A stretch of 64,000 bases of DNA from positions 62,001-126,000 of the forward strand of contig JAAILG010000050.1 in the NCBI GenBank assembly GCA_012026655.1, in the 5' to 3' direction. This document shows, piece by piece, positions 4,246 to 35,420 of the stretch. How positions within the stretch are numbered: position 1 is the first letter of the stretch; each line of letters opens with the position of its first letter. The translations under genes were made by a program, and so were the position numbers. A model generated the notes under the pieces. The model worked only from the letters and a program-made list of their open reading frames with translations. It had not been told where the DNA came from and made no database searches. The DNA is from Hydrolagus affinis. Taxonomy: Eukaryota.

Positions 4246-5119
4246 GTAATGTCACAGGATTGGAACCTGCCGCTGTCGCGTTCGTTGCAGTAGGCGGGAA
4301 ACTGGAGGTGTGAATGTCGGAGCTGAAGCCATGAATGGGCAGCTGTAGAAGAGCTACAAAATCAATCCCATTTCAAATTGTACTCACCTCTGAGGCCCCC
4401 AAACCCCCCCCCACCCCCGTGAGACCTCTTGGCTCAAGTCTAAACGGCTCTTACCGTCTCATCGTGGCCCCTTTCCCTTAACAACTGTGGGTTCCTCCTC
4501 ATAGCTCTCGTCTGCTCTGCCAGTGGAGCCTTTAGGGTGCAGCAAACAAGAGCTGTACGCAATATCTCTGGGGTCCTACCTGACCAGAGCAGTTTGAGTA
4601 TAACATCAAGAGATCGGAACTCGTGTGATGTGGCAATATAGCCCGGCCTCTGATTTGCCTTGTTTTTGCTGTTTGATGAGTGATTAACAACAACAACAAC
4701 AACAACAACAACGACGAAATTCGTCCCCAGGCCCTGGGTCTCAATTTTGTGACCCTAAGAACTTAGTAACTGGCAGTGAGGGTTTGCGGACTGCGCTGAT
4801 ATTGCTCTCCCATCGACTTCCAGCCCTTCCTGCATCCCATTAAACATCATTTTGAGCCCCGTAGTGTATACAAAACCCTCACATGGCTTCACCTCCGACT
4901 GTCTTCATCCCGTTGGAAAATACTGGACAATGATAGCATTAGATCTCTTTCCCAAAAACCTAAAGGATTGGGCCACGAGAAACCAAAAAAATTAGTACCA
5001 GGATTTCATTGCCAATGGAAATATTTTATTTAAAAAGGAAAATTGTTGTTTTTTCTCTCCGCCCCACCTCCCCCCACCCACCCCCCCCCCCCACCAACCC
5101 CCACCCCCTCCACCTGCAG

Positions 5120-5288
5120 AATTATCAGAATTCAGACCTACCTTTGATTGACCAGGGAGCAGAGATCTTTAAGACTCTACACTACCTCAGTAATCTTATC
5201 CAGAGCATTAAGAACCCCCTGGGCACAAGAGATAACCCTGCCCGAATCTGTCGTGACCTCATGAACTGTGAGCAACGAATGAATGACG
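5120..5288 (+). CDS. COL27A1: COL27A1 C-propeptide (COLFI) exon ([56 protein letters not shown])
   Basis: 169-nt exon, ctgcag|...|gtgagt; [17 protein letters not shown] is characteristic of COL27A1. Confidence 0.96.
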
Positions 5289-5490
5289 GTGAGTTCGAAC
5301 GATCGCAAATGTTTCCAGCTTGTAGCACGTAAACCAGGTGCCTTGCGTTCCCAACCAGCGAATGAGTTCTCAGTTACCTATCCGCTCGCTTTAAATATTC
5401 CTTTGCAGTAACCTGTGACAGTCATTGTAGTTTAGATTGCTTTTGTAACATTCCTAACTGTTGGAATCTGTCACCGAAACTCAGCTAACT

Positions 5491-5843
5491 ATAATAATAA
5501 TAATAATAATAATCCTCGCGTTTTGATATCGCGCTTTTCACGTCTTCTAGACGTCTCAAAGCGCTTCACAGAATGTACTGCAAAGTGAATTGACTGTATA
5601 TTTGTGGGCGAAACGCGGCAGCCAATTGCGCACAGCGGCGTCCCCCACAAACAGTCGCGGATTGAAACGACCAATTTTACTATAGTGTTTTTCTTGTGGA
5701 GGGATTATTATTAAATGTGTGTGTGTGTGTGTGTGAGTGGAGCAAGGAAACTTGCCCAGTGTTTCGCCCTGACCTGCCTGGATTCGAACACAGCTCTCAC
5801 GTTTGTAAGGCGAGCGCTCTAACCACTGAGCTACAGGACTCCA
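5491..5843 (-). mobile_element. Full-length tRNA-derived DeuSINE
   Basis: Head TGGAGTCCTGTAGCTCAGTGGTTAGAGCG (A box) and GTTCGAATCC (B box), Deu-like core CTGTTTGTGGG...GCGCAATTGGCTGCC, L2-like tail, (ATT)n. Confidence 0.85.
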
Positions 5844-6084
5844 TAGAAGCTACATATGCTCTCTGTATGCTTTGAATGACCCCCTCCCCTCCCACCCCCC
5901 ACAGCCCTCCCATTCTCAAACTGTGTTGAATACAATAGCAAAACACAGAGATAAAAGTAGAGGATTCTCTTCCGACCGATTGTGTGTGTGTGGGACTGGA
6001 ATGCACAGTTCGCCCCCTCGTTCTTTCTTGTTTGCGTACAGTTCTCAGTGGCTTCTCTTGATTCCGTTTTATTTTTTTTTAAAG

Positions 6085-6194
6085 GCACTTACTGGATTGA
6101 CCCTAACCTTGGCTGTTCCTCTGACACCATCGAGGTGACCTGTAATTTCACAAAAGGCGGACAAACCTGTTTGAAACCTATCACTGTGTCAAAG
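6085..6194 (+). CDS. COL27A1: COL27A1 COLFI exon ([37 protein letters not shown])
   Basis: 110-nt exon, phase 1 to 0; YWIDPNxGC fibrillar collagen motif. Confidence 0.96.
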
Positions 6195-6259
6195 GTAATG
6201 CCTCAGTTTCCTGTGCACCTCATTCATTTCAAGATCGCCGATCGATTTCAAGATCGTAA

Positions 6260-6725
6260 ATCATGTCTTCAAATCCCCTCCACTCCCTCCGCACCTCCCC
6301 CTCCCCCCCCCACCTCTCTTGACACACCTCTGGGATCCTCATTATAGGACGGATCAACTTCAAGATCCTCGTTGTTGAGATCCTCCAAGTGGGAGTTCTG
6401 ACGAAAGGGGTCGTGGGCCCGAAACGTTGACTCGCTCTCCTCTCTCCGTGGATGCTGCCTGACCTGCTGAGTTTTCCCAGCAACGTCCGTTCTTGTTCAA
6501 GATCCTCATACTCGTTTGCGAATGGCTTTACGCCACACGCCTCCCTGTCTCTCCGACCTACTCACTTCCCTCGCCACCTCCTGCCAACTCTGCTCAACTA
6601 GCTCCAGCCTCTTGCTCCTCCACCCCCACCCCGCTCCCGTCCACTTGCTATCAAGCTCCCGCACAGATCAGCGCTCTCAGACGCTACCCTGTGTGAAGGA
6701 CGCGATATAAACGCAAGTTGTTGTT
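6260..6725 (+). mobile_element. L2-like LINE 3' fragment interrupted by a Penelope-like insert
   Basis: RINFKIL ORF2 remnant resumes as FKILIL after the insert; tail CAGCGCTCTCAGACGCTACCC...GCAAGTTGTTGTT. Confidence 0.65.
6371..6495 (+). mobile_element. Penelope-like terminal-repeat fragment with a minimal hammerhead motif, flanked by a 12-bp duplication
   Basis: TTCAAGATCCTC at 6359-6370 and 6496-6507; CTGACGA...GAAACGTT core. Confidence 0.65.
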
Positions 6726-7298
6726 AGCGTCAACGTGCTTATCGCAATGCCACCTGGTGTATTTTAGTGGCATTGCACCCCAATTGGAAATTACTGCAAG
6801 ATGATTCATTTTATTTTGCTGGTCTATAGTTAGGCCGTAGGAAAGCTTTACCTTTCCAATAAAAACTAGGAGGTTTTGCTGCTAACCATGAAGTCATCGT
6901 AAGCAGAACCACGTACTAACTAACGTTGCATTTACAGCACATTTCGCGTCAATAAATGTCTCAAAGCACTTTATAAAAACTGATGAACTAATTCATTACT
7001 CTATTTTTGTTTCAAAGCGCTTCACAGGATATACTGTGAAGTGAATTGACTGTGTATTTGTGGGCGAGCGGCAGCCAATTGCGCACAGCAGCGTCCCCAC
7101 AAACAGTCATGGATTGAAATGACCAATTTTATCAGTGTGTTTTTTTTTTTAACGATTATTTAGGTGTGTTGTATTAAATAAAAACACATTAATATATATT
7201 ATATGTTAATTGTATATATGTGTGTGTATATATTCTGCATGTAATGTCCCTGGATACAACTACAGTATTAACAATCTGATTCTCTGCTTTCTTTTTAG

Positions 7299-7517
7299 TT
7301 GGAGTTTTCAGTGGGACGGGTCCAAATGAACTTCTTACATTTACTGAGCTCTGAGGCAGTCCAGCATATCACCATTCACTGTCTAAATGTGCCAGTGTGG
7401 ACAGACGGACAATCAGGCAAACCCTTCAAACAGGCTGTCATGTTCAAATCGTGGAATGGCCAGATGCTGAAACCAGGAGGACAGTTTCTACCTGAAGTTT
7501 TGCTAGACAACTGCTGG
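7299..7517 (+). CDS. COL27A1: COL27A1 COLFI exon ([30 protein letters not shown]...LDNCW)
   Basis: 219-nt phase-0 exon, ttttag|...|gtaacc; [11 protein letters not shown] motif. Confidence 0.96.
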
Positions 7518-8078
7518 GTAACCTTCACCTATCTTAGCAACTCTGTGTGTTCAGTATTTGATTCATACGAATAATAATGAGAATAATCCTTGCATTTGAT
7601 ATAGGGAGTTTTTCACGTCTTCTAGACGTCTCAAAGCGCCTCACGGAATATACTGTGAAGTGAATTGGCTGTATATTTGCGTCAAAAAGTCGTGGATTGA
7701 AACGACCCAATTTATTTTAGTTTTTTTTGAGGGATTATTATCGGGCGCGTGGAATAAGAAAACTTGCTATATCAAATGCAAATAAATAAATAATTACTAT
7801 TATAATTAAAGCATTTCACAGAATATAACGTAAAGTGAATTGAACCACCCCCCCACCCCTCCCACTCCACAATACAAGGCCTTTTTGTTCATTTACTTAA
7901 CATTCAAACAGAACAGAATCACACCACCTTCACAAAGTAACAATTCAAACAGCGAGATCCTGTAACAATGTAAGAGAACGATTGCCAGAGACGTCAGTGC
8001 CCCAAATGTACGTCCATGGCATGGAATTTATCCAACCCCCTGATCCTATCCACGCCACATTCGGGAAAAATGTTAGTT

Positions 8079-8380
8079 AATAATAGTAATAATAATCCTT
8101 GCATTTCTTGTAGTGCTTTTCACGTCTTCTAAACGTCTAAGCGCTTCACAGGAAATGCTGCAACGTGAATTGACTGTATATTTGTGGGTGAAACGCGGCA
8201 GCCAATTGCGCACGGCGGAATCCCCCACAAACAGCCGTGGACTGAAATTACTTTTTTTTTTCAAGGGATTATTGCTAGGCTTGTGTGTGGAGTAAGGAAA
8301 CCTGCCCGAGGTCTCGCCCTGACCTGGTATTGAACCCGGGTCTCTCGCTTGCAAGGTCGAGTGCTCTAACCAGGACTCCA
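8079..8380 (-). mobile_element. DeuSINE, near full length
   Basis: Same family as 5491-5843. Confidence 0.85.
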
Positions 8381-8456
8381 CCAGTTAGAAGGGGGAAGGT
8401 TTAATTTGCCGTGCGGTGGCAAACTCATCTGATTTTATCTTTCCTCCACTTTTCAG

Positions 8457-8603
8457 GAACAGGATGGCCGATGGCATCAGACACACTTCTTTTTCCACAC
8501 CCAGGAACCCAAACAACTGCCGATCATTGGCGTGTATAATTTACCGCAACGAAAGCCTGGAATCCACTACCACCTGGAGGTTGGACCTGTCTGCTTTCTC
8601 TGA
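8457..8603 (+). CDS. COL27A1: COL27A1 terminal coding exon ([25 protein letters not shown]...LEVGPVCFL*)
   Basis: 147 nt from tttcag to TGA; EVGPVCFL* fibrillar collagen C-terminus. Confidence 0.96.
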
Positions 8604-13441: not shown

Positions 13442-13447
13442 TATAAA
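13442..13447 (+). promoter_or_regulatory. TATA box of the lipocalin/ORM gene
   Basis: TATAAA 66 nt upstream of the ATG at 13508. Confidence 0.7.
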
Positions 13448-13507: not shown

Positions 13508-13618
13508 ATGGCTGCTCCTCTCCTCGCGTTCCTCTCTGTGGCTCTGGCCGGGTTCCTCGGTGCCACTTCACAGGCCTGTAAGTTGGAACCAGCAAACATT
13601 GACCTCGCCAACCCGAAG
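13508..13618 (+). CDS. ORM1: Orosomucoid (alpha-1-acid glycoprotein)-like lipocalin exon 1, signal peptide (MAAPLLAFLSVALAGFLGATSQACKLEPANIDLANPK)
   Basis: Kozak ataATGG, hydrophobic signal peptide, donor AAG|gtaaga, 111 nt phase 0. Confidence 0.85.
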
Positions 13619-13679
13619 GTAAGAGGAATTCTAAACATCGCTTAAACCTTCTTCCGCCTTGCATTGACTGCAATAAATA

Positions 13680-14170
13680 GTAATAACCCTTGCATTTTTG
13701 ATACAGTGCTCCTCACGTCTTCTAGGCCAGTGGTTGTCAACCTTTCTCAGTAGTGTACCCCTCGCTCATTTTCAACATTATCGTGTACCCACCACCCAAC
13801 CACATAGACACACACACCACCACCTCCATTCCATTTGCATTTTATGACCAAGCTTTCCGTATATAATAAAACAACTAGCAACGTACAAAACGAGGGGAAT
13901 AACAAATATATCATTTGTAAGGCTATAAAACGCTAAATAAGAGCTAAATAAATCAATGTACCGCCATCTGTACCCCCTGGAAGAAATTTGGTAGCCCCCC
14001 TAGGGTACATGTACCCCTGGTTGAGAACCGTTGTTCTAGACTGTCTCAAAGCGGTTCACAGAGACTGTAAAATGAATTGACTGTATATTTGTGGGCGAAA
14101 CGCGGCAGCCAATTGCGCACAGCAGCGTCCCCCACAAACAGTCGTGATTTGAAATGATCAAGTTATTATA
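13680..14170 (-). mobile_element. DeuSINE 3' half, split by a hAT MITE
   Basis: Tail consensus CACGTCTTCTAG|ACGTCTCAAAGCG is interrupted at the TCTAGA site. Confidence 0.8.
13728..14033. mobile_element. hAT-Charlie-type MITE
   Basis: TIRs CAGTGGTTGTCAACC / GGTTGAGAACCGTTG; 8-bp TSD TTCTAGGC / TTCTAGAC; subterminal GTACCCC repeats. Confidence 0.85.
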
Positions 14171-15280
14171 GTTTTGCTTTTTGTAGCTTCTGTCTCTCCA
14201 ACCACGTCGGGGCAATAATCAGGGTTATTGCCTGATTAATAATGAATGAATGGGAGACCGACTGTCCCAAAGGTGACGGGGAGAATGGACAAACATTGTG
14301 AACTCGTCACAGAGAGATGTTCGTAGAACGTGTTCACAGTGAGATTCAATGTCGGACAACAGTAAAGCAAATGTCAGTGGAACAAAAGGGAATGCGTGTA
14401 CCCCTCTGAATTCGCTGGAGAAATTCCTAATACAGCAAAATCTAGCAGTGGAACATGTTTAAAATAAATAAGAGATAGGGCACAGCTGCAATACATTCAT
14501 ATTGGGAGAAAAGCAGCGTCCCTCAGGTTCCACGGTTATACAGGGGGATTGGAACCAAAAGTAGTTTTAAAATGTAATCAAGATGATGCAGAATTAGGAG
14601 ATATGTTATACACATATACAATATATACTTTTAAATCATAATTGCTCTCAGCCGCTCTCTTTCCATGCTGTTAACTAATCGAGGTCAGAATCTGTCAGTG
14701 ACAATTACTCCAGGTCAGTACACTGCATGGGAGGAACTACATAAATGCGTTATTATAATACTCGAGGCGTGAAATCACTCGTGACACAGTTATCATACAT
14801 TACCTTGTTTTTTTTATATGCCCCTGAGCCACTTGGGAGAGAAGTGAGCTGTATGTTTTTTTTTCTAATCATTATTGATAATTAAAACGAGCATAAAACG
14901 AATTTCAGTTATAACTTCTGCCTCGGCCACTTTTGGACTCGGTTTGTAAGAATGCACCATTTAAAATAGCTGAAGATATTGAAGCCAGAGCAAGTTTTTT
15001 TAAAAAAAAACTGATCTTGTCAAACTGCTTACAAAGTCAACAAGGAATACTGTACTGGCTTCGATATTTCACTTGCACTTTTCCAGAACACAGGCAAGAC
15101 AGGCAATGCAGTAATACCGTGCTGGTTCTACTGCATTATTTCTTTTTATGATTATAGTCTGACAGTAAAAGATTTTTAATTTCCAAAAAAATGTATGCAA
15201 AAATAGTTTTTTTTTTTTTAAAAATCCCTAAAGGATCTTTAATAATTGCGATAATACATCTTCTCTTTTTCTTATTGCAG

Positions 15281-15423
15281 ATAGCTGGAAAATGGTATTT
15301 AATACAAGTAGCTACAGAGGTGGAGTTGTATCAGAAACGGTTTGCAAGCATGGACAATATATACCTCATAAGCACTCCGGACGTCCAACTGAACAAAACA
15401 AACATAAAAGAATTCAGCCGCAT
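15281..15423 (+). CDS. ORM1: ORM-like lipocalin exon 2 (IAGKWYLIQVATE...LNKTNIKEFSR)
   Basis: Lipocalin SCR1 motif G-K-W-Y; 143 nt, phase 0 to 2; ttgcag/gtaggt. Confidence 0.9.
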
Positions 15424-15499
15424 GTAGGTCACATTTATTGCCGAATGCGTAAGAGTGCAAGTCTGGATTCAAAAAGTTCCCAATTTAATAATTGTAATA

Positions 15500-15819
15500 A
15501 TAAATCATAATAATCCTTGCATTTGATATAGCACTTTCCACATCTTCTAGATGTCTTAAAGCGCTTCACAGAATATACTGTAAAGTGAATTGACTGTATA
15601 TTTGTGGGTGAAATGCGGCAGCCAATTACACACAGCGGCGTCCCCACAAACGGCCGTGGATTGAGTGACCAAATTATTATTGTTTTTTTTTTTGAGAGAT
15701 CATTATCAGGTGTGTGGAGTAAGGAAACTTGCCCAAGGTTTCACCTGAGCTGCTTGGAATCGAACCCAGGTCTCTCACTTGTAAAGCGAGTGTTCTAACC
15801 ACTGAGCTACAGGACTCCA
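15500..15819 (-). mobile_element. Full-length DeuSINE
   Basis: Same family as 5491-5843. Confidence 0.85.
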
Positions 15820-16027
15820 TCTAGGCTAAGAATGGCTACGTAGAAAACAAGGCTAACACCCATAAAACTGTTCAGCAAGTGCATAGGAATATGGGAATAG
15901 GAAGAGGCCATTCAGACCATCAAACCTGTTCCATTTAAGTGAGTGCCAAGGGAGAAAAGGAAGGTTGAAAAGTGGTGGGGAGCGGGGGAAAGAAGTGGAG
16001 CGAATAAACTATTTTTTCTTTGCCTAG

Positions 16028-16098
16028 AGGAGACTCGTGTTTCTCTACAAATACAGATTATATTGTGTCAGCGAATGGGCTGGAATTTACGGATGAAG
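16028..16098 (+). CDS. ORM1: ORM-like lipocalin exon 3 (GDSCFSTNTDYIVSANGLEFTDE)
   Basis: 71 nt, phase 2 to 1, cctag/gtaagg; conserved lipocalin Cys. Confidence 0.85.
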
Positions 16099-16254
16099 GT
16101 AAGGAGCTTTCAAACTGCATTTTTTGTTCCAATAAGCAGAAGAAATAGCAACTTAAAGTAAGCCAAACTCCCAGTGGGCTGATCACTGGCAGATCGGATC
16201 ACAGACAAATAAATACAAGTTACTAAAAAAAAATAGGAAACATGACTGAACAAG

Positions 16255-16497
16255 CCGGAAGTTGAATTAACTGTACATTTGTTGAAATAACTGTACACGG
16301 CAGCCAATTGCGCACAACAGTGTCCCACACATAATCATGGATTGAAATGACCAATTTTATTATTGTTTTTTTTTTTGGGAGGTGTGCGTGTGGAGTAAGG
16401 AAACTCGCCCAAGGTTTCGCCCTGACCCACCTGAATTCGAACAAGGGTCTCACGCTTGTAAGGCGAGCGCTCTAACCACTGAGCCACAGGAGCTCCA
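16255..16497 (-). mobile_element. DeuSINE lacking its tail
   Basis: tRNA-like head and core present. Confidence 0.8.
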
Positions 16498-16607
16498 CAA
16501 ATAAATAAGATTAATAACCTCTCCTGCACAGAATTGACTTGCTTGCTGTTCTAGAATGTTTTGAAGGGTACCGTATATTAATATAATAACTGCCTTGCTC
16601 CCACAAG

Positions 16608-16715
16608 CCATGAACACCAACTTTCAGATCATCAAAATGAAGATGGACAACACCATGATCATTGATTATCGATATCAAATCGAGAAGAAGGACTATCACA
16701 TGCTGGCTCTTTTCA
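16608..16715 (+). CDS. ORM1: ORM-like lipocalin exon 4 (AMNTNFQIIKMKMDNTMIIDYRYQIEKKDYHMLALF)
   Basis: 108 nt, phase 1 to 1; AAG acceptor keeps the frame, donor gtgagt. Confidence 0.8.
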
Positions 16716-17212
16716 GTGAGTGATCAACGCAGCAATTCTCTACACGCAAATTTCTCGATCGAGCTCTACCATTTCGCAGACACCATCACAACGTGTGAGA
16801 AAATAGCTGACCGGTAGCTTAATTAGCGGACAAAGGCAATCACATAATAAACCCTGTCTAAAGCTAACTAAATTTTCTCCTAAAACGGATTCTCCAAAAC
16901 ATTAGACAACTTACTTCACTGTAGGGTGAGAATCTGCTCCCAAGTTCAAAGCGACTGGAGTTATCCAGAGATAAGCTGTTGACGGGGCTCTGCTTTTCTC
17001 TTGTGAAACTGAACAGAAAGTGTTTGGGCCAATTCAGTTGTGAATATGAGAATCATCACAGCTGGGCCCTATCTAGTGCCCTCAACAAGGGTGGGGAGGT
17101 CATTAGGTAATGAACCAATGAAGGAATCCTGAGTGATTTATTGTTGCTTTTCTGTGCAGAGAGGTACAAAAGCTGGAATGTCCCACCCAATATAACTGAA
17201 CAGTCACTACAC

Positions 17213-17253
17213 TAATCTTTGCATCTGATGTGCTACATCAGATGCAAAGATTA
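17213..17253. repeat. Perfect 19-bp inverted repeat with 3-nt loop
   Basis: TAATCTTTGCATCTGATGT-gct-ACATCAGATGCAAAGATTA. Confidence 0.95.
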
Positions 17254-18060
17254 CTGCTGTTGTTACACTAATTAATTTTGGCCTTCCTGGATTAACCTAA
17301 TTCTAGGATATTTCCATATTGGCTCATGGAGGCACCTATCCCAACGTCCCCTTTAATGATGTCCACCGTTCTTTGGAGAAAATCGACCGCTAACACATTT
17401 GCAAAGTACAGTTCGCCAGAACACAAACAGCATTAAATGTTGGAACAAACTGTACGAACGTCCACCTGAACAAGCAGATGGGACCTGGTTTATAATGTCT
17501 TTCCCAAAGGACGGCACTTCTAAACATTGCAGCGCTGCATTGGAGTGCCAGCCCAGATTGAGCTCAAAGTCTTGGACGCACAACCTTCTAGAGATGAGCG
17601 AGCCATGTGTATTCTAGATGGTCTAGTACCTATCCTACACGAAAGGGCTATATAAATCCCTCCTCCTTCCCCCTTCTCTACCCTTTTTCAAGTCCCCTCC
17701 CACACTGCTCGGAGTGAGCCTACACCGTGTTAAGCACTCTGAGACGCTACCCTGTGTGGAGGGTGCTATATAAGTGCAGGTTGTGGTTGTACAAATGTTA
17801 GTTTATTGTTGCTGTTGTTAGAATTGGAATCAGAGGGATAGGCAATGAGAGAGAGATATTCAGAGCCAGAATCTTTTTTTAAAAAGTACTGTACATAGAA
17901 ACTCAGAAGGAAAAAGTCAAGAGAGATCAGAAGGTAAAGAGAGATACGCAGAGAGTCAGAAAGATGTAGACGGGAGGGCAGAGAGAGAAGAACCGGCACA
18001 GTGTAGCACTTTTGTGATAGTTCGTTAATTGTTGATGAGAAAGTGTAAATATATTTACAG

Positions 18061-18164
18061 AACGGAATCCAACCGCATCCAAAGAAGAGATGGACGTCTT
18101 TGAAAGCTACACAAAATGCCTCGGATTAGAGAAGGATAAAATCAAAGCATTTCCTCAAACCAAG
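18061..18164 (+). CDS. ORM1: ORM-like lipocalin exon 5 (KRNPTASKEEMDVFESYTKCLGLEKDKIKAFPQTK)
   Basis: 104 nt, phase 1 to 0; ttacag/gtttgt; SCR3 (L-F-K-R), helix and CLGL. Confidence 0.85.
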
Positions 18165-18656
18165 GTTTGTTGCTAAACATGAATCCTCCACATTTGAGAT
18201 GTGCGGCTGTCCAAATATCTACTTGTAACGCTCCACAGCCAAGCGCTTTGGGACGCTACCCTACGCGAGGGGCGCTATATAAATGGAAGTTGTCGTTTGT
18301 TGTAGCCGGAACCCTCCTCTTCTCAAGGCTTCACCATCTGGGAAGTTTGTTTGCGAGATGAGGATTGTGTGTGGTTTTGGCCTCTGTTTTTTATCTCTTC
18401 CTTCAGGAAATATTGAGTATTTGCTACCCACATCCTTGGCTATCATCTGCTATGCTGCTATGTTGGGAAACTGCACAATACATTACAGCATACAATAGCA
18501 ATGCGTTAATGCTCTAAACATTATTATCTTGCGTATGTTCAAGTCATTTTATTCTTGATTCAAGGTTGATAATCAGAGGAGGTTGCACTGATAGCTTACA
18601 TAGTGATAGCAAGATTGCATTTGCGTTTCTAACCTGTTTTTTCCTTGTTCTCTCAG

Positions 18657-18680
18657 AGCGAGTGTAAAGAAGAAAAATAA
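18657..18680 (+). CDS. ORM1: ORM-like lipocalin exon 6 (SECKEEK*)
   Basis: Long polypyrimidine tract, ctcag acceptor, terminal Cys, TAA; total CDS 561 nt = 186 aa. Confidence 0.82.
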   Translation, partial: SECKEEK

Positions 18681-19204
18681 AGAAACTCATTTAATGTTAC
18701 AACACAAAGCACCAAGATGTCAAAGAAGAAAAAAGCTTTGCTTCATAGAAACACCTGGACCTGATCAAGGCAGAACTGACTGAAGCACAAAACAATTGCA
18801 ATTAGCTCACAGATCCAGAATTTTTAAACTGTCCGGGATTTACTTACTTACTTACCTTCATCAATTCTGGCTCGTTTTCAATATCTAATTTGCTTTCATG
18901 TGGCAAATAAGTTTTAAACGGAATTAAATTTCATCAGCTAGTTTTCTGCTTTTTAAAATTCATTCTATGGTTTTGTGCAACAAAAAAATAATTTGCATTG
19001 TTTCAATGAATCTGCAAAACTCATTTGGGGATTAGATTAGCGTTTCAGTTTTCGGCAATGAGTGTAACAATGGCATAATCATACAAAACAATAAATAATG
19101 ATGTGAATGAACAAGAATTCCATTCATTGCCTACAAAATGGCAATATGATGAGAGATAAGCTGTATATCCTGATAAACAGGATATAGTGAGAAATATAGG
19201 CTAA

Positions 19205-23747: not shown

Positions 23748-23932
23748 TCATCGAGACTTGACTCCCAAACTGGTTTTCAGGTTCTCATACACCACGTAAC
23801 TGATGCTGACAGCGGGAACCACTTTCATGAAGTTTGGTGCTAGGCCTCTGTACAGTCCAATTGCTCCTTCTGTGCTCAGAATCTGCCTGAATAGTCCAGT
23901 CATCGTGTACTGAGGTGCTCCCTCTTTGGTGG
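23748..23932 (-). CDS. SLC25A25: SLC25A25 last coding exon (ATKEGAPQYTMTGLFRQILSTEGAIGLYRGLAPNFMKVVPAVSISYVVYENLKTSLGVKSR*)
   Basis: 185 nt, tttcag acceptor, TGA; Solcar repeat 3 end. Confidence 0.96.
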
Positions 23933-24115
23933 CTGAAACAGAGCAAACAAAATCTATAAATAATTGAGGAAAACACTGAACTATTAATTCATTTGATTCG
24001 GAAAGGAGCCTAAACTGAGAAAAAGTCACATGATTGACATTAAGCTAAAAGTAGCATGTGGCCACTTTAAACAGGACACGATCGTAGTCCCACAACCAAA
24101 GAATATGTCATTTCA

Positions 24116-24283
<168 letters not shown>

Positions 24284-24369
24284 CTAAAGATAAACCAAAC
24301 AATTTTATGAGTCAAACAAATTTACGTTTTACTAACAAAACTAGAAACATGGCATCTTAAATTGTGTAT

Positions 24370-24558
24370 CTCAAGACTCTCTTCTTCAACCGTGCCTTCT
24401 GCTGCCCTCCCAACTCTATCCCTCCCCTTCCTACCTCTCTCCCGCCCCTCCCCCCTACTTTGCCCCTCTCCCTTGCTCGGGCCCCGACCTGACCGTTGAG
24501 TGCCTTGGGACGTCCTCACGACGTAAAAGGCGCTCTATAAGTGTAATTTTGTTGTTGT
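24370..24558 (+). mobile_element. L2-like LINE 3' end
   Basis: Homologous to 3747-3946; ends AGGCGCTCTATAAGTGTAATTTTGTTGTTG. Confidence 0.72.
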
Positions 24559-24596
24559 ATTAACAAAGGTTGTTTTTCATACTTTTAAAAGTACTA

Positions 24597-24803
<207 letters not shown>

Positions 24804-24915
24804 TCAGAAAGAAGCAACACCACAGAATTAGAGACACAAATAATATCTGAAATATAACATTCTTACAGAGAACAAATTGTAATGTGCTGGCAGTTTCCAA
24901 CTCAAGTCACTTTAC

Positions 24916-25023
24916 CTCCATTGGGTAGATTGTGCTCTGGGCAATTGCTCCAGCCAGTGATCCTGCAATCAATCTTTCCTGAATGCCCAGGGTCTCCTGA
25001 TTACTGCCAATTAATCGCTTTAT
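24916..25023 (-). CDS. SLC25A25: SLC25A25 exon ([36 protein letters not shown])
   Basis: 108 nt, phase 0, GT/AG. Confidence 0.96.
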
Positions 25024-25219
25024 CTGCAAAAGAAGATTTGTAAATTGGATTACTACCCATAATGAACAATGGATACTGATCATTTAGTATCAGATTTTAA
25101 CAAAATCGGTTATACGTTTTGATCAAAAAACAAACATCAGAAAAATATAGGAATTGTGTTCACAACTTAATGATTAAAGTAAATGAATATCAATCTCTTC
25201 CCATCTATTCAGCTCTCAC

Positions 25220-25372
25220 CTGCTCATAAGCCATGAATTTGAGGGCAGATTCAGGTGCAATTTTGATGACGTTGATTCCATTTCCTCGCCACAGAGACCG
25301 CAGTCCCCCTTCTTTAATCATTTGGCCAAATCCTCCTGCGATACACATACTGTTAGCTTTAGAAGCGTGAAC
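25220..25372 (-). CDS. SLC25A25: SLC25A25 exon ([51 protein letters not shown])
   Basis: 153 nt, phase 0, GT/AG. Confidence 0.96.
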
Positions 25373-26613
25373 CTGTCAAATGAAGAATATCTATCAGTAT
25401 ACTTTGTTTCTACCAAAGAATGATTGTGTAAGACATGAACAACATGAATGATAAGATTGTAGCTCAAAAGAAACCTTTCTCCACTGCAACTGAGGTTCAA
25501 AAACCATGCAAGAGTTCAATGCTTAACAGTTACTGAACCAGGCTTGCATACAGATCCAGTTCTACTTCACAATAGCACTGGATATTTTGAATACCTAGCA
25601 GTTCAAAGATTGCTAAAAAACACTCTGTGCCATGAAGGTTGTACCATGAAGGTTGAACCATGAAGGCTGTTAGAACCTTCATGCCTCTTCTCATGAAATT
25701 GGGGCTTTTAATGCAAACGTTAGTCAATATTGCAATACTGCTAGAGACAGCAGCAACATTGCAAAACTGCTAGTGATGTTCACTCAGTAAACACTCCTAT
25801 AAAATCTTTTCAAAGAAAACATACCAATAAGGGGGTCGGAGGGGGAGAAAGAGTTCACTCCATTGTATGTTGAACCCACTTCTCATCAGTCAAAACCTCA
25901 GAAGATAGATGATTTGGGGAGATTTACTAGCCAGAAAACTAGTTACTGATTGAAAAGTTAATCTTTTTTGTGTTCCGAAACCAAAATGTCATCAGATAAA
26001 ACAATTAGATCAACATCAATCTACGTCAAAGATTATGGAAGCAATCCAATTCTATCATTGGGCGTTTTATTTCAATGTCCCAAGCTTCACCACTATAGTT
26101 TTTAAAGTTTATGCCAAAAAAAGGTACAACCTTGTTCACAATAAGGAGAATTGTAGAAATTATTACTCGAAGGCCACTGAGCTACTTTCCTCACTGAAGC
26201 TATGTACGATAATCATAATGTAATGCTCTGTCCTCCATATTTTCACTCTTCAAATATTTACCCATAACTTTTAAACAGCACTGTTCAATAGCACAAGGAC
26301 AACACATTTCCCTTTTTAACAATTCTTAGCATGATTTTTGTTGAACCAATCACAGAATCTTTCTAGGAAAAATTGTTAACAATTCACCAGCCCAAAGTAT
26401 TCATCCACTCAAAATATATTTTACCAACACTGGGAAATGCAAGGTGCATGAAGAATTTAGCAATTGAAAATCTGCATTTTATAAAATATTACAATTCACT
26501 AACAATGCAACTTCATATAGTCACACAATATATTGGGGGAGAGAAAGATGTCTGGTTACCAGATTAAGAAACTGACATTTCAAAAATCAAATCACAGTGC
26601 GGCACAAACTTAC

Positions 26614-26772
26614 TTGCATGAGCACTTTGAGACGGTCGAGCGGAGCAGTGCATGTCCTGGACACAGCACCTGCACCCCCTCCTGCTACGAGCTGTCGCCA
26701 CCACATCCCAGTCTGCTTTTCCTCTGCTGTGAACTCATCTGGAATTGTTAAACTCTCGCCTACATCAAAAAT
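26614..26772 (-). CDS. SLC25A25: SLC25A25 exon ([14 protein letters not shown]...[12 protein letters not shown])
   Basis: 159 nt; PLDRLK mitochondrial carrier signature Px[D/E]xx[K/R]. Confidence 0.96.
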
Positions 26773-27749
26773 CTGGAACACAAATTTTGGATTTTAATTT
26801 CAAATAACTAACATTTGAATTAGATTAATATTTTTGCTACCTTATCAAATTATTTATTTGTAATGAACCAAGAACATTGAGTTTTCTGATAAGCCCCCTC
26901 TGATAATAATAATTGCATCTGATATAGCGCTTTAAACAATTCATAGATTAATGGTAAAGTGAATGAACTGTATAGTTAACAGAATATACAGTAAAGTGAA
27001 TTAATTGTATATTTTGTCGGCGAAACTCGAGGGTTAAACCCTTCTAGTTCAAACATTCAGTTTAAATTAGTAGGGTCTTATCAAGAAACCCTAAAGCTAG
27101 AGTTGAAACTAGAAATTCCTGTTTCTAAAAAGGTGGATGCATTACAACCAAGGCACATTCTATGTGCCAATAGTTATCTTATGACTTCTATCTTTAAGTA
27201 ATGAAATCATTTCTGCATTTGTACACAGATCAGATTGCAAGGCCACATGCATTTCAAATTTTGACATCCAACACCAACTCAAAAGTCTCCAAGTGCTAAC
27301 CCAGTGATCTAAAGATCAGGTTACTTAATCAAGATGATTAAGTAACCATCTAAAATGCAACATCATTCTATAGCATTCTAGTGATTTGGCCTCAAAAAAC
27401 AAGTTCAGTCAACTAATGTTGTGGCTATACTAAAGTATGAAATCATCAGGTAAAAGCAAACCCAAACTTTTGTCCCAAATTTTGTGGAAAAAAAATCTTA
27501 AAGACCTTTCTAAAAGTCTGAATACAAAATTCAAATGTAGGATTGCATGAATAATATTCATTGTCTGATTAGATCTAAGAGAAGAATGCACCAGTGATTA
27601 GTATTCTGTGATCCACAAAAACAAAACTTGTATTAGATACGAAACAATCTTTTTTCCATCCAAGTTCACTGTCTTCCTGCTCCCCGTCTACACCCTGCCT
27701 CTCCTAGCTGATTTTAAGGACAATTCTTAAATAGTCATCCTGAACTTAC

Positions 27750-27861
27750 CGTGGAGTGTTTCCAATATAGGATTATTTCAGGAATGTTGTCCGCTGGGTG
27801 CAGAAGGTGATAGTCTCGCCACTCATTCCAGTCGATTGTCATTGTTCCATTTTTATCCATG
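27750..27861 (-). CDS. SLC25A25: SLC25A25 exon with EF-hand 4 ([37 protein letters not shown])
   Basis: 112 nt, phase 2 to 0. Confidence 0.96.
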
Positions 27862-28250
27862 CTGTTTTAATAAAGAAAAAATTACAATGAAAAAGAAGCC
27901 CTATATCAAGGTTTGCTTTGCTAAAGTAAGGCATTCTGCTAACTTCTAAGTACTTTGGCAAATTTCAGTAGGAAAGGGAGTTATTGATAATCATTACACT
28001 ATTTTTTCTTCCACTTTAAAAGAAACATTTAAGTATTTCAGCAATAGTACAGGATGATTTATTAACAAGAAACTGATGAGTTATTTTTTACTCTATAATG
28101 AACTTTATTCGAAGAGAATTTATGTAGAAGACCAATTTACAAGCACTGGGTAAGAAAAACTATGCTGGATGGAAATAAAACATATATCTACTAATTCTAT
28201 AGAAATATGTGAAGATGGGGAAGTAGGCAGTACAATACACTGGTACTTAC

Positions 28251-28286
28251 TATGCAATAGGGCCCCGCAGGTGCCCTCTCCAAATT
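28251..28286 (-). CDS. SLC25A25: SLC25A25 36-nt cassette exon (R/IWRGHLRGPIA/Y)
   Basis: tctatccag|...|gtaagt, symmetric phase 2-2, no stop; resembles the human isoform insert IRTGHFWGPVTY (recalled). Confidence 0.8.
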
Positions 28287-29301
28287 CTGGATAGAAAGCA
28301 GAAAATGTAGAAAAAGATGTAGATAACAGCACAGATAAAGAATTTCAGACATTCATCAAAGTACAGTATATGGAAAACCCACTGATGAATACTGACTTTG
28401 GCCACTCTAAGAACCCTTGGATGAAAAACTTCTTGTTTAAATAACTGATTTTATCTGGTCCCATTATTCTGCATTTTAAATCTCATTTGCATAATCTTTT
28501 ATCGTGCACCTTTATTATTCTCCATGATATTCTTGGTTCAGTTTCCAGGCTTCCCAAGTTGCTCAGGACAATTAAACATACCTAAAGATGCCTTGCAAAG
28601 ATTATTGCACTGAGTGACATAAGTATGCTAGAAACTGAGCTTTGAGCATTCACTCATATCAGATCCAAGTCGGTTCCTTTACAAAATATTGACAAACTCT
28701 TTCTAAAAGTGTATGAATAGAAACAAATAGAGCTGCCGAGTGACATTGTGCACTGGAGCACTAATAATAATAATCCTTTGATTTGATATACAGCGTCTTA
28801 TCATGTCTTTTAGATGTCTCAAAGCGCTTCACAGAATGTACTGTAAAGTGAATTGACTGTATGTTTTATGGGCTAATAAATATATGAATACCTAAACTGG
28901 AGTAAAGGGAGACTGAGTTGGTTCCCTAACATACTGAGCTCCACACTATGTGCCTAGCTGAGACCATATCTCTCTCTGGAGGGAATTATAAGTAAGCTTT
29001 CAACGCAACTGATCATCAGCATCTAACAGTATTGATGGAGAAGAGTAATAATAAAATGTATTCTTTGCATTTGACATAGTGCTTTTCAGATCTTCTAGAC
29101 TAGGTTTATAAATAGATGAAAGGAGAAAATTACAAACACACACACATACATACAGACCAGTGAAGACATATGAAAATAATGAAATATTTAATAAGTAGAA
29201 GAAGCAGTCTGCAATTTGAAGAAACAGGTTCACAAATCTAGATTCACAATGCTGCAGGCTGCCGTTACTGAGGCATGCTGAATAGATGCAACAAAACTCA
29301 C

Positions 29302-29389
29302 CGTTTAAGGATCTTTTCTGCCTGTTGTTCTGAAATATGCACCCCAAGGTCACACAATGACTGCATGATTTCCTGCGCATCAATTTTTC
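29302..29389 (-). CDS. SLC25A25: SLC25A25 exon (GKIDAQEIMQSLCDLGVHISEQQAEKILKR)
   Basis: 88 nt, phase 1 to 2, ttttcag/gtgagt. Confidence 0.95.
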
Positions 29390-29744
29390 CTGAAAATGAA
29401 TTCCCCCAAATTGTTGAGACACAATCCACTTAAAGCTACAGTAGAATAAACATTCCGCAGGATGCACTGCTCGATTATAATGGGAAAACCTATTAGAGAC
29501 TAATATTTAAATAAGACTTGGATTTGGTATAGCGCCTTTCACGTTGTGTTAAAGCGCTTCACGGGATTTACTGTGAAGGGGAGTAGCTGTGTATTTGTAG
29601 GCAAAAGTGGCAGCTAATTTGTACACAGCAGTGTCCACAAACATCCATTAAGTGAATAACTGATTTTATTTGAAAGATTGTTGGTAAGGATACTGGGAGA
29701 AACTATTAAATTGCATATGTTCATAATGATAAATTAGTGCTTAC

Positions 29745-29871
29745 CATCATTTTTCTTGTCCAGGCTTTTGAAAACTAATTGGAGTTTCTTTTCATGGTCT
29801 TTTAAATAATGAACAAATTCTTCAAAGTCCAACTGTCCATCACAGTCTTTGTCACCAGCTTTCACAATTTT
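29745..29871 (-). CDS. SLC25A25: SLC25A25 first common exon with EF-hand 2 and start of EF-hand 3 ([42 protein letters not shown])
   Basis: 127 nt, phase 0 to 1; canonical EF loop [12 protein letters not shown]. Confidence 0.96.
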
Positions 29872-31873
29872 CTGTTTTGAAAAGATCAGGGGAAAAAAAC
29901 TCTTTAACTTACATTTCATAGGCTAGGACGAGTGAGTAATATCACTTCAGAAACAAAGAGCAACAATACATCCCATTTATTTTATCCCCTAAAGACAGTG
30001 CCTCATGTACAGTTTCACATTTGCCGACAGCTTTTCAGTACCTGACCACATAGATGTACAACTGAGGACAGCTAAAGTACCTTGGAGAGAAATTGTAGGG
30101 TTCTGAGATGATCCAATAAGAGTATTTTACTATCCATTAATGTTTCAACAAGCTACTACTCAATTTTAACCCATTGTTCGTATATTAACATAAAATTTAA
30201 TTGTTTACAGGTTGTTTAGTCTGTACCTGATACCAAAGGTCAGAAACAAACAAACTCATGATGAAGGATCAAGTTCCTCAATGAATTTATAGCATTGAAA
30301 ACTATGTGCAGAGCTGTTTCAGTGCTCAGTAAACTTGATACCCAAAGCTGGATAATACCAGGAGTTATGCATATTTGCTTCAGTTATATATCTCAACAGA
30401 TATAACATTTACCAATTTTTAAAATGCACAAGTAATAAAAAAAATTGTGGACACATGGTATAGCAACAATAAATGTACATGCACTCAAGATGGTCTGGTG
30501 ACCAAAGATTGTGCAATTGTTCAATAGAGAGGGAGCAATAAAGATTACTCTTCTGAGCCCCACAGACACACATACTGTATTGAGTTCTCAAGTCTCAATC
30601 ACATAATCTGACAAGGTCCTAGCTAACCTGAGTCAAAGTATTTCCTTTGCAAAAGGGAGGCAGAAGCCAGAAACAGGTGCATGATTTCTTTCTTGATCAC
30701 AGAACATTGTGGGAGAGGGAAGAGAAGCATTCCTGTTTTAAAAAAATCAGTTTCTAGTAAAAAAAAATCAGTTTTACCTCAATACATCAATTGATTGATG
30801 TAATAAAAGTTATAATCAGCCATAACCAATGGAACAGTAGAAATAGAAATTAAACTTTTTAAACTTCGCTTGCTCTGACATTTTGCTGTCTCACATTACC
30901 AGAGATCTGCATAATGCAATGGCTCAATTCCTGATTCCAATGTCCTGTGATCTTTACTTGAAAGCCACAAAAGGTTCCCTGATAGTTCAACTGAGAGTTA
31001 TTTCATTACAAGGCTCCTGAAGGCATTTAGCATGTGACTGGTTATTAAAAGCTTGGGTCACAGCATTCAGTACATTGCTTTTGAATACCTTGAAACCAAA
31101 ATAAAAATTTAAAAGACAAGGGATTATTCTGTTACATGCACCCTAGAAAGCAAATGTTTGCTTCACAATCATATAATGCTCTCATAATCTAAATAAGAAT
31201 CCAGTTTCCCCCAGTGTTATGGCCAACTTTTCCTTCAGATTAATTCATCATTCACTTATGGCGGTTTGTAATACCTTGCCAGTGCAAGACTTGCTGTCTC
31301 TTGGGTTTGCCTACAAAAAGTAATTATCCTAATAGAAATTAACTTTTGTGTTTTTGAAGTGATAAAGTATATATAAAATGCATTCTTTACTATACAATAA
31401 TAATCCTAGTATTTGATATAATACTTTATCTCGTCTTTGAGACATCTCAAAGCGCTTCACAAAATATACTGTAAAGTGAGTTGACTGTATATTTTGTGGG
31501 CGAAACAATCCATTCATGCAATCCTGGTTATATGGAATACAGTCTGCAATGAAAGGCATAGTTTCACCCTTTGACTGAGGTTAGTCAAAGTATTACATAC
31601 AGAACTACTTTTGCTGAAAGCAGTTGGGTACTATGAAAATAAATGGCATATTTAAGTGAAGGAACAATTAGATGCTATATCCTGTTACAATTTTCCAATA
31701 ATCCAGGACAAAAATAGCTTTCTGGGACAGTCCACAATTTGTATCTTCAGAGTTGATCTTGAAATCTTTGAACCAAACAGTGCAGACTTCCATGGGTTTA
31801 AAATCCTCATAGATACTTTACATTTTAAAATACAACAATCATGAGTCGGATTAGATAACACATCATAGTTTAC

Positions 31874-32032
31874 CTGTCTCCATTGGCGATAGGTTGAGAT
31901 TTCTTGTGAAGGGATGAATAGGCTGAGCCTGAATATAGATTTTAGTTCGGCAGGTAGCCTTTGTGATTCGAAGTATTGAAATTCCCTTTCCGAAGTAATG
32001 GGCACTGGCACATACAAACATAGGCACAGCAT
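31874..32032 (-). CDS. SLC25A25: SLC25A25 alternative first exon, isoform a-like (MLCLCLYVPVPITSEREFQYFESQRLPAELKSIFRLSLFIPSQEISTYRQWRQ)
   Basis: 159 nt from ATG to CAG|gtaaac; gives a 469-aa protein; MLCLCLYVP start as in human SCaMC-2a (recalled). Confidence 0.92.
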
Positions 32033-32574
32033 TCTAACAGCGTTCTTATTTTCAAATAATAATTTAAAAATAAATAAATATAAAAACACAACTCTTCAGA
32101 ACCACAGGTGAAAATAAATAGTTTTAGAGTGGCCTAAATTAAATGACCACACTTGCTCAACGCAACCGCTTTAAAGTAAAATGTCTGATCACCATATCAC
32201 ATTTTATTGCCAAGAGCAGTTCCTTCTCCTCCTATTTCAGTCTGCGTAACACATGAATGAAACACCCCCCTCTGTTTTAACCAATCACAACTCTAGTTTT
32301 GCATTCCACACAGGTGGGGCTTGCTCCTTGTCATCGAATTCAAGACACCTCACTCAGCCATCTAAATTTTTAAAAACTTCAATATTCACAATACGCAAAA
32401 TGTTATACGCAAAATGTTGTTAACATTTTATATAAGTTTGCACCATGTTGTCTATTTATTATGTGCTGAGCCTTCTGGTATTATACTTCAGATTGTTGCA
32501 AAAGAACTCAATGCAAACAGTAGACATCAGTCATGGTCAGACAAATCGTTTATGGTGCGGAAGAATTTTTTTTA

Positions 32575-32970
32575 ATTCTTGCATTTGATATAACAGCTTT
32601 CACTTCAGGAGCATGCCTCAAATACTGTCATGCATAGTGACTGTATATTTTTGTTGATATACACGGCGACCAATTTGTATAGCAATTTCCCACAAACAGC
32701 CATAAAGTGAATGATCAATTTTCACTGAGGGATTTTTGGCTAGGACATCAGGTGAGACTCCCTTCTCTTTTTAATTACTGCCATGCAATCATTAATGTCC
32801 ACCCAAGAAAACAGATGGGATCTCAGTTTAACTCCTCATCGAAAGGATGGCATCTCCAACAATCCACCCAAAATTCACTGGAGTGTCAGCCTAGACAAGG
32901 ACTTCAAAGTCCTGAATTGAGGTTTTATTGTACCAAATATTCTGTCTAAGTATGCTACCACCTGTGCCAA
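32575..32970 (-). mobile_element. Old long-core DeuSINE
   Basis: Contains CAGATGGGATCTCAGTTTAACTCCTCATCGAAAGGATGGCATCTCC...CACTGGAGTGTCAGCCTAGA; related copies at ~17440-17600, 44010-44380, 50230-50530. Confidence 0.7.
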
Positions 32971-35310: not shown

Positions 35311-35420
35311 TACTTTTGAGACCTCCTCCAACCATACTGCCCAGGCACTTTCACTCTGGCATTCTATCTGCAGAGAGTGAAAGTGCCTGGGCAATATGGT
35401 TGAAGGAGGTCTCAAAAGTA
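35311..35420. repeat. 47-bp near-perfect inverted repeat with 16-nt loop
   Basis: Arms 35311-35357 and 35374-35420, 2 mismatches, TA at both outer ends. Confidence 0.95.

What the first reader, a model, noticed from the sequence alone, without database searches (positions are those of the whole stretch)
13508..18680. Intact orosomucoid (alpha-1-acid glycoprotein) orthologue with only one N-glycosylation site
Seen: six exons (111/143/71/108/104/24 nt; intron phases 0,2,1,1,0) splice into a 186-aa secreted lipocalin with a GKWY motif and four Cys (ACKLE, GDSCF, TKCLG, SECK), directly downstream of COL27A1 on the same strand. Knowledge (recalled): human ORM1 lies just downstream of COL27A1, has internal exons of 143/71/108/104 nt, two disulfides at equivalent positions and five N-glycans. 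Here only one usable sequon exists (LNKT, aligning with human PNKT; NPT is blocked by Pro). Inference: this is an early-branching, poorly glycosylated AGP that is too divergent for routine naming. It bears on the origin of this acute-phase/drug-binding protein and of teleost AGP-like toxin binders (TBT-bp, PSTBP).
Basis: partly seen in the sequence, partly recalled or inferred. Interest (0 to 1): 0.7.

Follow-up and report, generated by a model that had tools for sequence, protein, structure and literature searches.

The report
Chimaera orosomucoid with one sugar site
This is an intact six-exon gene, spliced in a close relative's RNA, for a small lipid-carrier protein in a chimaera-like cartilaginous fish; it is likely the fish version of the human drug-binding blood protein orosomucoid with one sugar-attachment site instead of five, which would make that protein older than current papers say.

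Summary
The gene is real. Six GT-AG exons (111/143/71/108/104/24 nt) give 186 aa with four Cys and one usable sequon. RNA from a close relative confirms the last two junctions.

Orosomucoid (AGP) orthology is likely (~0.85). Human AGP1 is the best PDB match for the 76%-identical Callorhinchus protein and for two family profiles, and all four Cys align with AGP's disulfides. Against it: one shark orthologue prefers LCN15, fold scores tie, and no tree with tetrapod ORM could be built.

Three corrections. (1) NCBI already names the Callorhinchus orthologue 'alpha-1-acid glycoprotein'. (2) N75-K-T lies four residues from human N54. (3) One site here is partly a recent loss: a TAA cuts off a tail whose sequon is still readable in the 3'UTR, and Callorhinchus has three sites.

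Across the clade, low glycosylation does look ancestral: N75 is present in 11 of 13 proteins and is the only site in 7. Nine of 11 shark and ray proteins are basic. A 2021 phylogeny dates ORM to land vertebrates and omits this gene. The gene itself is ordinary; the evolutionary point is useful.

The parts
13442..13447 (+). TATA box (TATAAA), 61 nt before the ATG
   Evidence: sequence; function inferred
13508..13618 (+). Exon 1 coding part (111 nt): hydrophobic signal peptide (cleavage near residue 21-23 inferred) and Cys24
   Evidence: most hydrophobic 11-residue window starts at residue 5; tblastn
15281..15423 (+). Exon 2 (143 nt): GKWY motif, sequon N75-K-T (15392-15400), Glu81 (= human AGP Glu64)
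16028..16098 (+). Exon 3 (71 nt): Cys89; Asn93 and Asn101 align with human N75 and N85 but lack the +2 Ser/Thr
16608..16715 (+). Exon 4 (108 nt)
   Evidence: donor confirmed by RNA joint
18061..18164 (+). Exon 5 (104 nt, followed by a phase-0 intron): blocked N147-P-T, C-terminal helix, Cys164
   Evidence: both ends confirmed by RNA joints; Pfam Lipocalin E 0.007
18657..18680 (+). Exon 6 coding part (24 nt): Cys182 and stop TAA (18678-18680)
   Evidence: acceptor confirmed, and no other letter listed at the stop in the relative's reads
18681..18764 (+). Former coding tail, now 3'UTR: 27 open codons homologous to the Callorhinchus C-terminal tail, with a silent N-V-T sequon at 18693-18701
   Evidence: alignment, tblastn E 8e-4; the open frame alone is not significant (P about 0.12)
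18681..19120 (+). 3'UTR; AATAAA at 19090 is the likely poly(A) signal
   Evidence: RNA depth continues to the end of the laid stretch at 19120; signals listed
4964..8603 (+). Neighbour: last exons of a fibrillar collagen (COLFI domain), COL27A1 by recalled residues
   Evidence: Pfam COLFI; last exon
23748..43035 (-). Neighbour: EF-hand mitochondrial carrier, SLC25A25-like by recall, tail to tail with the lipocalin
   Evidence: Pfam Mito_carr and EF-hand; exons

Best explanation
This is a single-copy, intact six-exon lipocalin gene of a chimaera-like cartilaginous fish, likely the orthologue of tetrapod orosomucoid (alpha-1-acid glycoprotein), whose product is predicted to be a secreted carrier of small lipophilic ligands bearing one N-glycan. 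Shown: exon structure, ORF, the last two splice junctions and low-level transcription in a relative, a family of orthologues in 12 cartilaginous fish species, and a lipocalin fold for the Callorhinchus orthologue. Inferred mechanism: the signal peptide is cleaved (mature chain about 19 kDa, pI 5.6). The chain folds into an eight-stranded barrel closed by disulfides C24-C164 and C89-C182 (equal to AGP C5-C147 and C72-C165). It binds ligand in a pocket that keeps the acidic Glu64 equivalent (E81), so neutral or cationic lipophiles are the likely cargo. The one glycan sits on the B-C hairpin, at the closed end of the barrel by general lipocalin topology, and would not gate the pocket. At about 21-22 kDa it would be filtered by the kidney unless bound to a partner, so it is likely a short-lived or local carrier rather than the sialic-acid-rich plasma reservoir of mammals. 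History, inferred by parsimony: N75 was the single ancestral chondrichthyan site; chimaeras added a tail site; this lineage lost that tail through a C-to-T nonsense change.
For: Splicing and ORF; one locus in the genome. P0001 against PDB sequences: AGP1 37.0 bits, AGP2 27.4, best non-AGP (LCN15) 21.9. Three-sequence profile: AGP1 54.4, OBP3 41.8, ApoM 27.7, LCN2 22. Twelve-sequence profile: AGP1 55.7, OBP3 48.4, LCN15 36.0, ApoM 31.9. All four Cys are in register with human C5, C72, C147 and C165 (bonds from PMC6895661). Foldseek ranks 1-8 are all AGP chains. Five introns as in human ORM (PMC8217824). The phase-0 fifth intron and 104-nt exon differ from the same genome's PTGDS-like paralogue (102 nt, phase 1). 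Orm1 and Col27a1 lie in one mouse BAC and one cattle interval. Sequons: N75 in 11 of 13 proteins, sole site in 7, none in 2, three sites in 4. Tail homology past the stop; 10 of 11 shark and ray proteins have 9-12 residues after the last Cys, against 4 here.
Against: No tree with tetrapod ORM, ApoM, LCN15 or LCN9 could be built. The Heterodontus orthologue's best PDB hit is LCN15 (36.3 bits) ahead of AGP1 (29.9), and its Atlas look-alikes are LCN9 and Can f 2 clusters. VIA Z-scores tie: alpha-1-microglobulin 20.3 (rmsd 2.3, 160 aligned), AGP 20.2 (3.0, 165), ApoM 19.9 (2.4, 159). The Foldseek margin is under two-fold in E (2.5e-10 against 4.0e-10). Identity to AGP is about 20%. P0001 passes the Pfam ApoM cut-off (27.5 against 22). 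The 3' neighbour is a mitochondrial carrier, not AKNA. PMC8420045 and PMC13151045 find no fish ORM. Structure and database tests used the Callorhinchus orthologue as a stand-in. Tissue, ligand and acute-phase behaviour are untested, and read counts were low.
Confidence: 0.8

Rival explanations
1. It is the cartilaginous-fish ApoM, or an unduplicated ancestor of both ApoM and ORM, working as a lipoprotein-bound lipid carrier.
For: ApoM and ORM are sister clades, and no ApoM was recovered from Callorhinchus (PMC8420045). P0001-P0003 pass the Pfam ApoM cut-off. VIA Z 19.9 ties with AGP. Several sharks have extra Cys at positions 107 and 124.
Against: ApoM has three disulfides (PMC8420045), while this protein has four Cys. 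ApoM scores 16-27 bits below AGP1. Human APOM is at 6p21 and ORM1 at 9q32 (PMC6381713); the neighbours here are chromosome-9 genes by recall.
Confidence: 0.07
2. It is a chondrichthyan-specific lipocalin, or an orthologue of LCN15, LCN9/MUP or LCN2, from the same chromosome-9 cluster, resembling AGP only through fast drift.
For: P0004's best hit is LCN15. OBP3 comes within 7 bits of AGP1 for the 12-sequence profile. NCBI names 5 of 12 orthologues lipocalin-15-like or MUP3-like. Human LCN2 lies 3' of SLC25A25 (recalled), as this gene does.
Against: The OBP3, MUP, LCN15 and LCN2 matches begin after the N-terminal Cys for P0001 or cover it without AGP's four-Cys register; only the AGP alignments shown keep all four. 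LCN2 and PTGDS score about 22 bits against 55. PTGDS-like and AMBP-like genes lie elsewhere in this genome, and the PTGDS-like one has a phase-1 fifth intron.
Confidence: 0.1
3. The orthology is right but low glycosylation is a secondary loss in cartilaginous fishes from a multiply glycosylated ancestor.
For: Asn93 and Asn101 align with human N75 and N85 and miss a sequon only at +2. N101 is kept in 11 of 13 proteins. This lineage demonstrably lost a tail site.
Against: None of the 13 chondrichthyan proteins has a sequon at positions 71, 93 or 101, the equivalents of human N54, N75 and N85. Extra sites are scattered: N147 only in Cetorhinus, Mustelus and Scyliorhinus; N179 and N193 only in Callorhinchus.
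Confidence: 0.2

Closest known systems
Callorhinchus milii XP_007898473.1 (LOC103183043), NCBI 'alpha-1-acid glycoprotein'
   Same: 76% identical over 186 aa; same four Cys, N75-K-T, N147-P-T and Glu81; acidic chain
   Different: 212 aa with a 29-residue tail after the last Cys and three sequons (N75, N179, N193); the window gene stops 4 residues after the last Cys and has Thr at the N179 position
Human ORM1/ORM2 (AGP1/AGP2; PDB 3kq0, 3apu)
   Same: Best sequence match for P0001 and both profiles; four Cys in register; five introns; Trp25 and Glu64 equivalents kept; collagen neighbour
   Different: About 20% identity; one sequon against five, and none at a homologous Asn; Tyr27 and Phe51 equivalents changed; shorter tail; 3' neighbour differs
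Shark and ray orthologues P0002-P0012 (11 species)
   Same: One family with the window protein: N75 invariant, Cys24 and Cys89 invariant; 35-37% identical for the two compared directly
   Different: 9 of 11 are basic (calculated pI 8.2-9.5), none keeps the Glu64 equivalent, and many have extra Cys
Teleost TBT-bp1/2 and PSTBP
   Same: Described as presumed AGP-like lipocalins (bioRxiv 10.1101/2020.04.19.048728, passages); a TBT-bp1b cluster is an Atlas look-alike of P0001 (0.93, rank 23)
   Different: No alignment or tree was obtained, so the relationship is untested here
Apolipoprotein M
   Same: Pfam ApoM hit; similar fold score; sister to ORM in PMC8420045
   Different: Three disulfides, 6p21 location, lower sequence scores

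Membership tests
Lipocalins (PF00061) | Pfam Lipocalin match above cut-off | tested here: met
   Orthologue P0001 51.3 bits against cut-off 23; window exon 5 alone 16.9 bits, E 0.007
Lipocalins (PF00061) | Beta-barrel plus C-terminal helix, GxW motif | tested here: met
   AlphaFold model of P0001, pLDDT 79; Foldseek and VIA hits all lipocalins; G40-K-W42 invariant
ORM/AGP orthologue group | Four Cys at C5, C72, C147, C165 | tested here: met
   All four in register (positions from PMC6895661); the bonds themselves are inferred
ORM/AGP orthologue group | AGP is the best-scoring reference lipocalin | tested here: inconclusive
   Yes for P0001, both profiles and Foldseek; no for P0004; VIA tie
ORM/AGP orthologue group | Five coding introns | tested here: met
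   human ORM has 5 introns (PMC8217824). Not unique: the PTGDS-like paralogue also has them
ORM/AGP orthologue group | Human internal exons 143/71/108/104 nt with a phase-0 fifth intron | not testable with these tools
   Human sizes are recalled only (with 114 and 66 they sum to 606 nt, fitting the 201 aa in PMC6381713); Sanchez 2003 not held; search empty. The window's 104 nt and phase 0 are RNA-confirmed and differ from the PTGDS-like paralogue
ORM/AGP orthologue group | Adjacent to COL27A1 | tested here: inconclusive
   COLFI gene 4.9 kb upstream; mammalian linkage in PMC11225360 and PMC12075139; COL27A1 against COL24A1 decided by recall only
ORM/AGP orthologue group | Monophyly with tetrapod ORM | not testable with these tools
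   Homologue searches returned only chondrichthyan proteins; the tree has no tetrapod rows
Mammalian-type 'acid glycoprotein' (biochemical class) | Five N-glycans, about 45% sugar, pI 2.7-3.2 | tested here: not met
   One sequon, polypeptide pI 5.6; human values. Not filed under this class
Mammalian-type 'acid glycoprotein' (biochemical class) | Liver-made plasma acute-phase protein that binds basic drugs | not testable with these tools
   RNA tissue unknown and counts low; Glu64 equivalent kept
Apolipoprotein M | Three disulfides | tested here: not met
   Four Cys only; feature from PMC8420045
Apolipoprotein M | Pfam ApoM above cut-off | tested here: met
   P0001 27.5 bits against 22
PTGDS-type lipocalins | 102-nt exon 5 with a phase-1 fifth intron, as in this genome's PTGDS-like gene | tested here: not met
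   104 nt and phase 0 here; 102 nt and phase 1 on G000:C5657
AMBP | Lipocalin fused to Kunitz (bikunin) exons | tested here: not met
   Stop in exon 6 and UTR reads after it; a separate lipocalin-plus-Kunitz locus lies on G000:C5657

The most novel reading that the evidence does not exclude
Orosomucoid is as old as jawed vertebrates. It began as a lightly glycosylated lipocalin with one closed-end glycan (N75), and in most sharks and rays it is a basic protein without the Glu64 pocket charge. The five sialylated glycans and extreme acidity that name the protein are a later bony-vertebrate or tetrapod addition. ORM (9q32) and ApoM (6p21) would then be ancient genome-duplication sisters on MHC-paralogous chromosomes (paralogy recalled), not a tetrapod offshoot of ApoM. 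Sharks and chimaeras supply a natural series with 0, 1 and 3 sites for separating the pocket function from the glycan function.
Probability: 0.55. Interest if true: 0.62.

Novelty: new member of a known kind. Interest (0 to 1): 0.42.

Why it matters
The lipocalin phylogeny read here (PMC8420045) lists six Callorhinchus lipocalins, none ORM, and proposes that ApoM generated ORM in terrestrial vertebrates. A 2026 orthology survey that included Callorhinchus (PMC13151045) found ORM 'not in any fish species', which bears on models of drug binding in fish plasma. A chondrichthyan ORM family moves the origin back to the jawed-vertebrate ancestor. AGP's physiological role is still described as unresolved (PMC8217824), and natural versions with 0, 1 or 3 sequons and basic or acidic chains let one test whether the conserved job lies in the pocket or in the glycans. 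The gene itself is not a discovery: NCBI already names its nearest orthologue AGP.

Tried and rejected
Searches that found nothing useful: exon 2 in the word-index protein search; exons 2 and 5 against PDB; Pfam on exons 1-4. The Atlas could not read exon 2. Profile searches did not reach bony vertebrates, so there is no ORM/ApoM/LCN15/TBT-bp tree. The tree (15 rows, Stegostoma isoform P0013 left out, two long-branch paralogues) is mostly unresolved and only shows the 13 proteins together at 81/86. The ApoM family search of the own genome rang nowhere, controls included, so it says nothing about absence. No RNA holder was listed by the run index. The first read lay was swamped by intronic repeats. 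Stop-codon read-through was rejected: 27 open codons occur in about 12% of shuffles. An assembly error at the stop was rejected: the relative's reads list no other letter there. The 143- and 71-nt exons were rejected as ORM markers; the AMBP-like exon 5 was not found. The promoter scan gave only TATAAA, one CTGGAA and one HNF1-like half site, with no chance control, and was not used. Flanking stretches L023 and L024 showed nothing recognisable; L022 and L025 were fetched but not examined. Earlier scan findings: none. Two papers were not held. My interim view that one sequon is simply a derived state was revised.


Full report
OBSERVATION. The six exons lie at 13508-13618, 15281-15423, 16028-16098, 16608-16715, 18061-18164 and 18657-18680. 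They have GT..AG introns of phase 0,2,1,1,0 and splice to a stop-free 186-aa protein with a hydrophobic N-terminus, GKWY, Cys 24/89/164/182 and sequons N75-K-T and N147-P-T (blocked); the mature chain is about 19 kDa, pI 5.6. A TATAAA lies at 13442. Reads from a related organism (runs X3 and X4, one sample, tissue unknown) give joints 16715->18061 (7+3 reads) and 18164->18657 (6+6 reads), with mates in the direction expected for a + strand RNA and coverage on to 19120. Junctions 1-3 were not seen directly but fit the orthologue alignment. The gene occurs once in the genome by DNA and by protein search.

RELATIVES. HMMER with exon 2 found 3 proteins among 1.84 billion. The best, P0001, is Callorhinchus milii XP_007898473.1, which NCBI names 'alpha-1-acid glycoprotein'; it is 141/186 identical, so the window is from a chimaera-like fish (inference). 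A profile search gave 13 proteins from 12 cartilaginous fish species and nothing else. Four of the 12 are named AGP or AGP-like, three lipocalin-15-like, two MUP3-like, one lipocalin-like and two uncharacterized.

IS IT OROSOMUCOID? For. Human AGP1 is the top PDB sequence for P0001 (37.0 bits; best non-AGP 21.9) and for profiles of 3 and 12 sequences (54.4 against 41.8; 55.7 against 48.4). The four Cys align with C5, C72, C147 and C165, which form AGP's two disulfides (PMC6895661, passages). An AlphaFold model of P0001 (pLDDT 79) has AGP chains at Foldseek ranks 1-8. Human ORM has five introns (PMC8217824, section 4). Orm1 and Col27a1 share a mouse BAC and a cattle interval (passages), and a fibrillar collagen ends 4.9 kb upstream here; naming it COL27A1 is from recalled residues. 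As a control within the genome, a PTGDS-like gene on G000:C5657 has exons of 140/77/114/102 nt and a phase-1 fifth intron, and an AMBP-like gene beside it has exons of 143/71/111 nt (labels are mine, from Pfam and Kunitz exons). So 143 and 71 are uninformative, and the 104-nt exon with phase 0 is the discriminating mark. That human ORM1 shares it is recalled, not tested.

Against. The Heterodontus orthologue prefers LCN15 (36.3) to AGP1 (29.9). VIA Z-scores tie among alpha-1-microglobulin, AGP and ApoM. P0001 passes the Pfam ApoM cut-off. The 3' neighbour is an EF-hand mitochondrial carrier, SLC25A25 by recall, which in humans flanks LCN2. No tree with tetrapod sequences could be made. Net estimate for orthology: about 0.85.

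GLYCOSYLATION. N75 is not human N54: the ungapped alignment pairs N54 with D71, four residues earlier in the same hairpin. Asn93 and Asn101 pair with human N75 and N85 but lack the +2 Ser/Thr. Callorhinchus has three sequons and a 29-residue tail after the last Cys. In the window a TAA replaces the Gln codon after EEK, and the 3'UTR still reads as that tail, its sequon included. The relative's reads list no other letter at the stop, while a nearby variant at 18696 is seen in 12 of 12 and 5 of 5 reads, so the stop is shared and not an assembly error. Ten of 11 shark and ray proteins have 9-12 residues after the last Cys (the Pristis record ends early), so the short tail is the derived state (inference). 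Across 13 proteins (window plus 12 species; isoform P0013 left out) the N75 sequon is present in 11; the mature part has one site in 7, none in 2 and three in 4. The N147 site appears only where Pro148 is replaced and +2 is Thr (Cetorhinus, Mustelus, Scyliorhinus). Parsimony therefore favours one ancestral site. Nine of 11 shark and ray proteins have a calculated pI of 8.2-9.5, and none keeps the Glu64 equivalent, whereas both chimaera proteins are acidic and keep it.

HOW IT LIKELY WORKS. Inferred throughout. It is a secreted barrel with two disulfides, a pocket with an acidic Glu81 (human Glu64 gives lobe II its negative charge) and one glycan at the closed end. In humans the glycans raise the mass enough to escape kidney filtration. 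A 21-22 kDa protein would be cleared unless bound to a partner, so a short-lived or local carrier of small lipophiles is more likely than a sialylated plasma reservoir. Liver origin, acute-phase induction and ligand are untested.

LITERATURE. PMC8420045 (main text parts 1-3 of 4 and supplement searches) lists six Callorhinchus lipocalins (AMBP, two APOD, C8G, PTGDS, RBP4), pairs ORM with ApoM and proposes an origin in terrestrial vertebrates. PMC13151045 (passages and section 3.2; figure and supplements not seen) found ORM in no fish species, though its introduction cites trout as an exception from earlier work. TBT-bps are 'presumed' AGP-related (bioRxiv 10.1101/2020.04.19.048728, passages; supplements closed). 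PMC6381713 and PMC13701976 were seen as passages. Searches (listings only; one search listed 30 of 98) showed no paper describing a chondrichthyan orosomucoid; subscription journals are not covered.

VERDICT. A real, intact gene and probably a true ORM orthologue, already named in NCBI for the nearest relative: a new member of a known kind. Its value lies in the family-level result, that ORM likely predates land vertebrates and began with about one glycan. Interest 0.42.

Noticed in passing
window 23748-43035 (-): SLC25A25-like carrier (name recalled) with two alternative first coding exons, near 32032 and near 42760, tail to tail with the lipocalin.
   Followed up: partly
window 58100-59396: GC-rich island with a FAM102A-like start at 59241 (+, name recalled), head to head with the carrier gene and cut by the 100-N gap at about 59297-59396.
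   Followed up: no
window 18676-18681: The base that makes the TAA stop also completes an AATAAA, yet RNA runs on to at least 19120, so it is not the only signal used.
   Followed up: partly
window 16911-17003 (intron 4): In run X3 only, a pile of about 70 opposite-direction reads with foreign loose ends and a sharp end at 17003; probably from another locus.
   Followed up: no
window 13700-14300, 15430-15900, 16200-16520, 17720-17800: High-copy, abundantly transcribed short repeats in the introns.
   Followed up: no
G000:C5657:12200-32000 (-), loci L019-L021: PTGDS-like gene followed by an AMBP-like gene with several Kunitz-like exons (near 18760, 13085 and 12291); the AMBP-like exon 5 was not found.
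   Followed up: partly
P0002-P0012: Shark and ray orthologues are mostly basic and often carry extra Cys at window positions 107 and 124, which co-occur in 5 of 11; a possible third disulfide or free thiols.
   Followed up: partly
L008, L009, L011 (G000:C162056, C152664, C190488): Three near-identical ApoD-like last exons on tiny contigs: recent duplicates or uncollapsed haplotypes.
   Followed up: no
window exons 1-5 against runs X1, X3, X4: Of 12 distinct coding differences read (table truncated) and 16, 7 are silent and 5 change a residue; none touches a Cys or the N75 sequon.
   Followed up: partly
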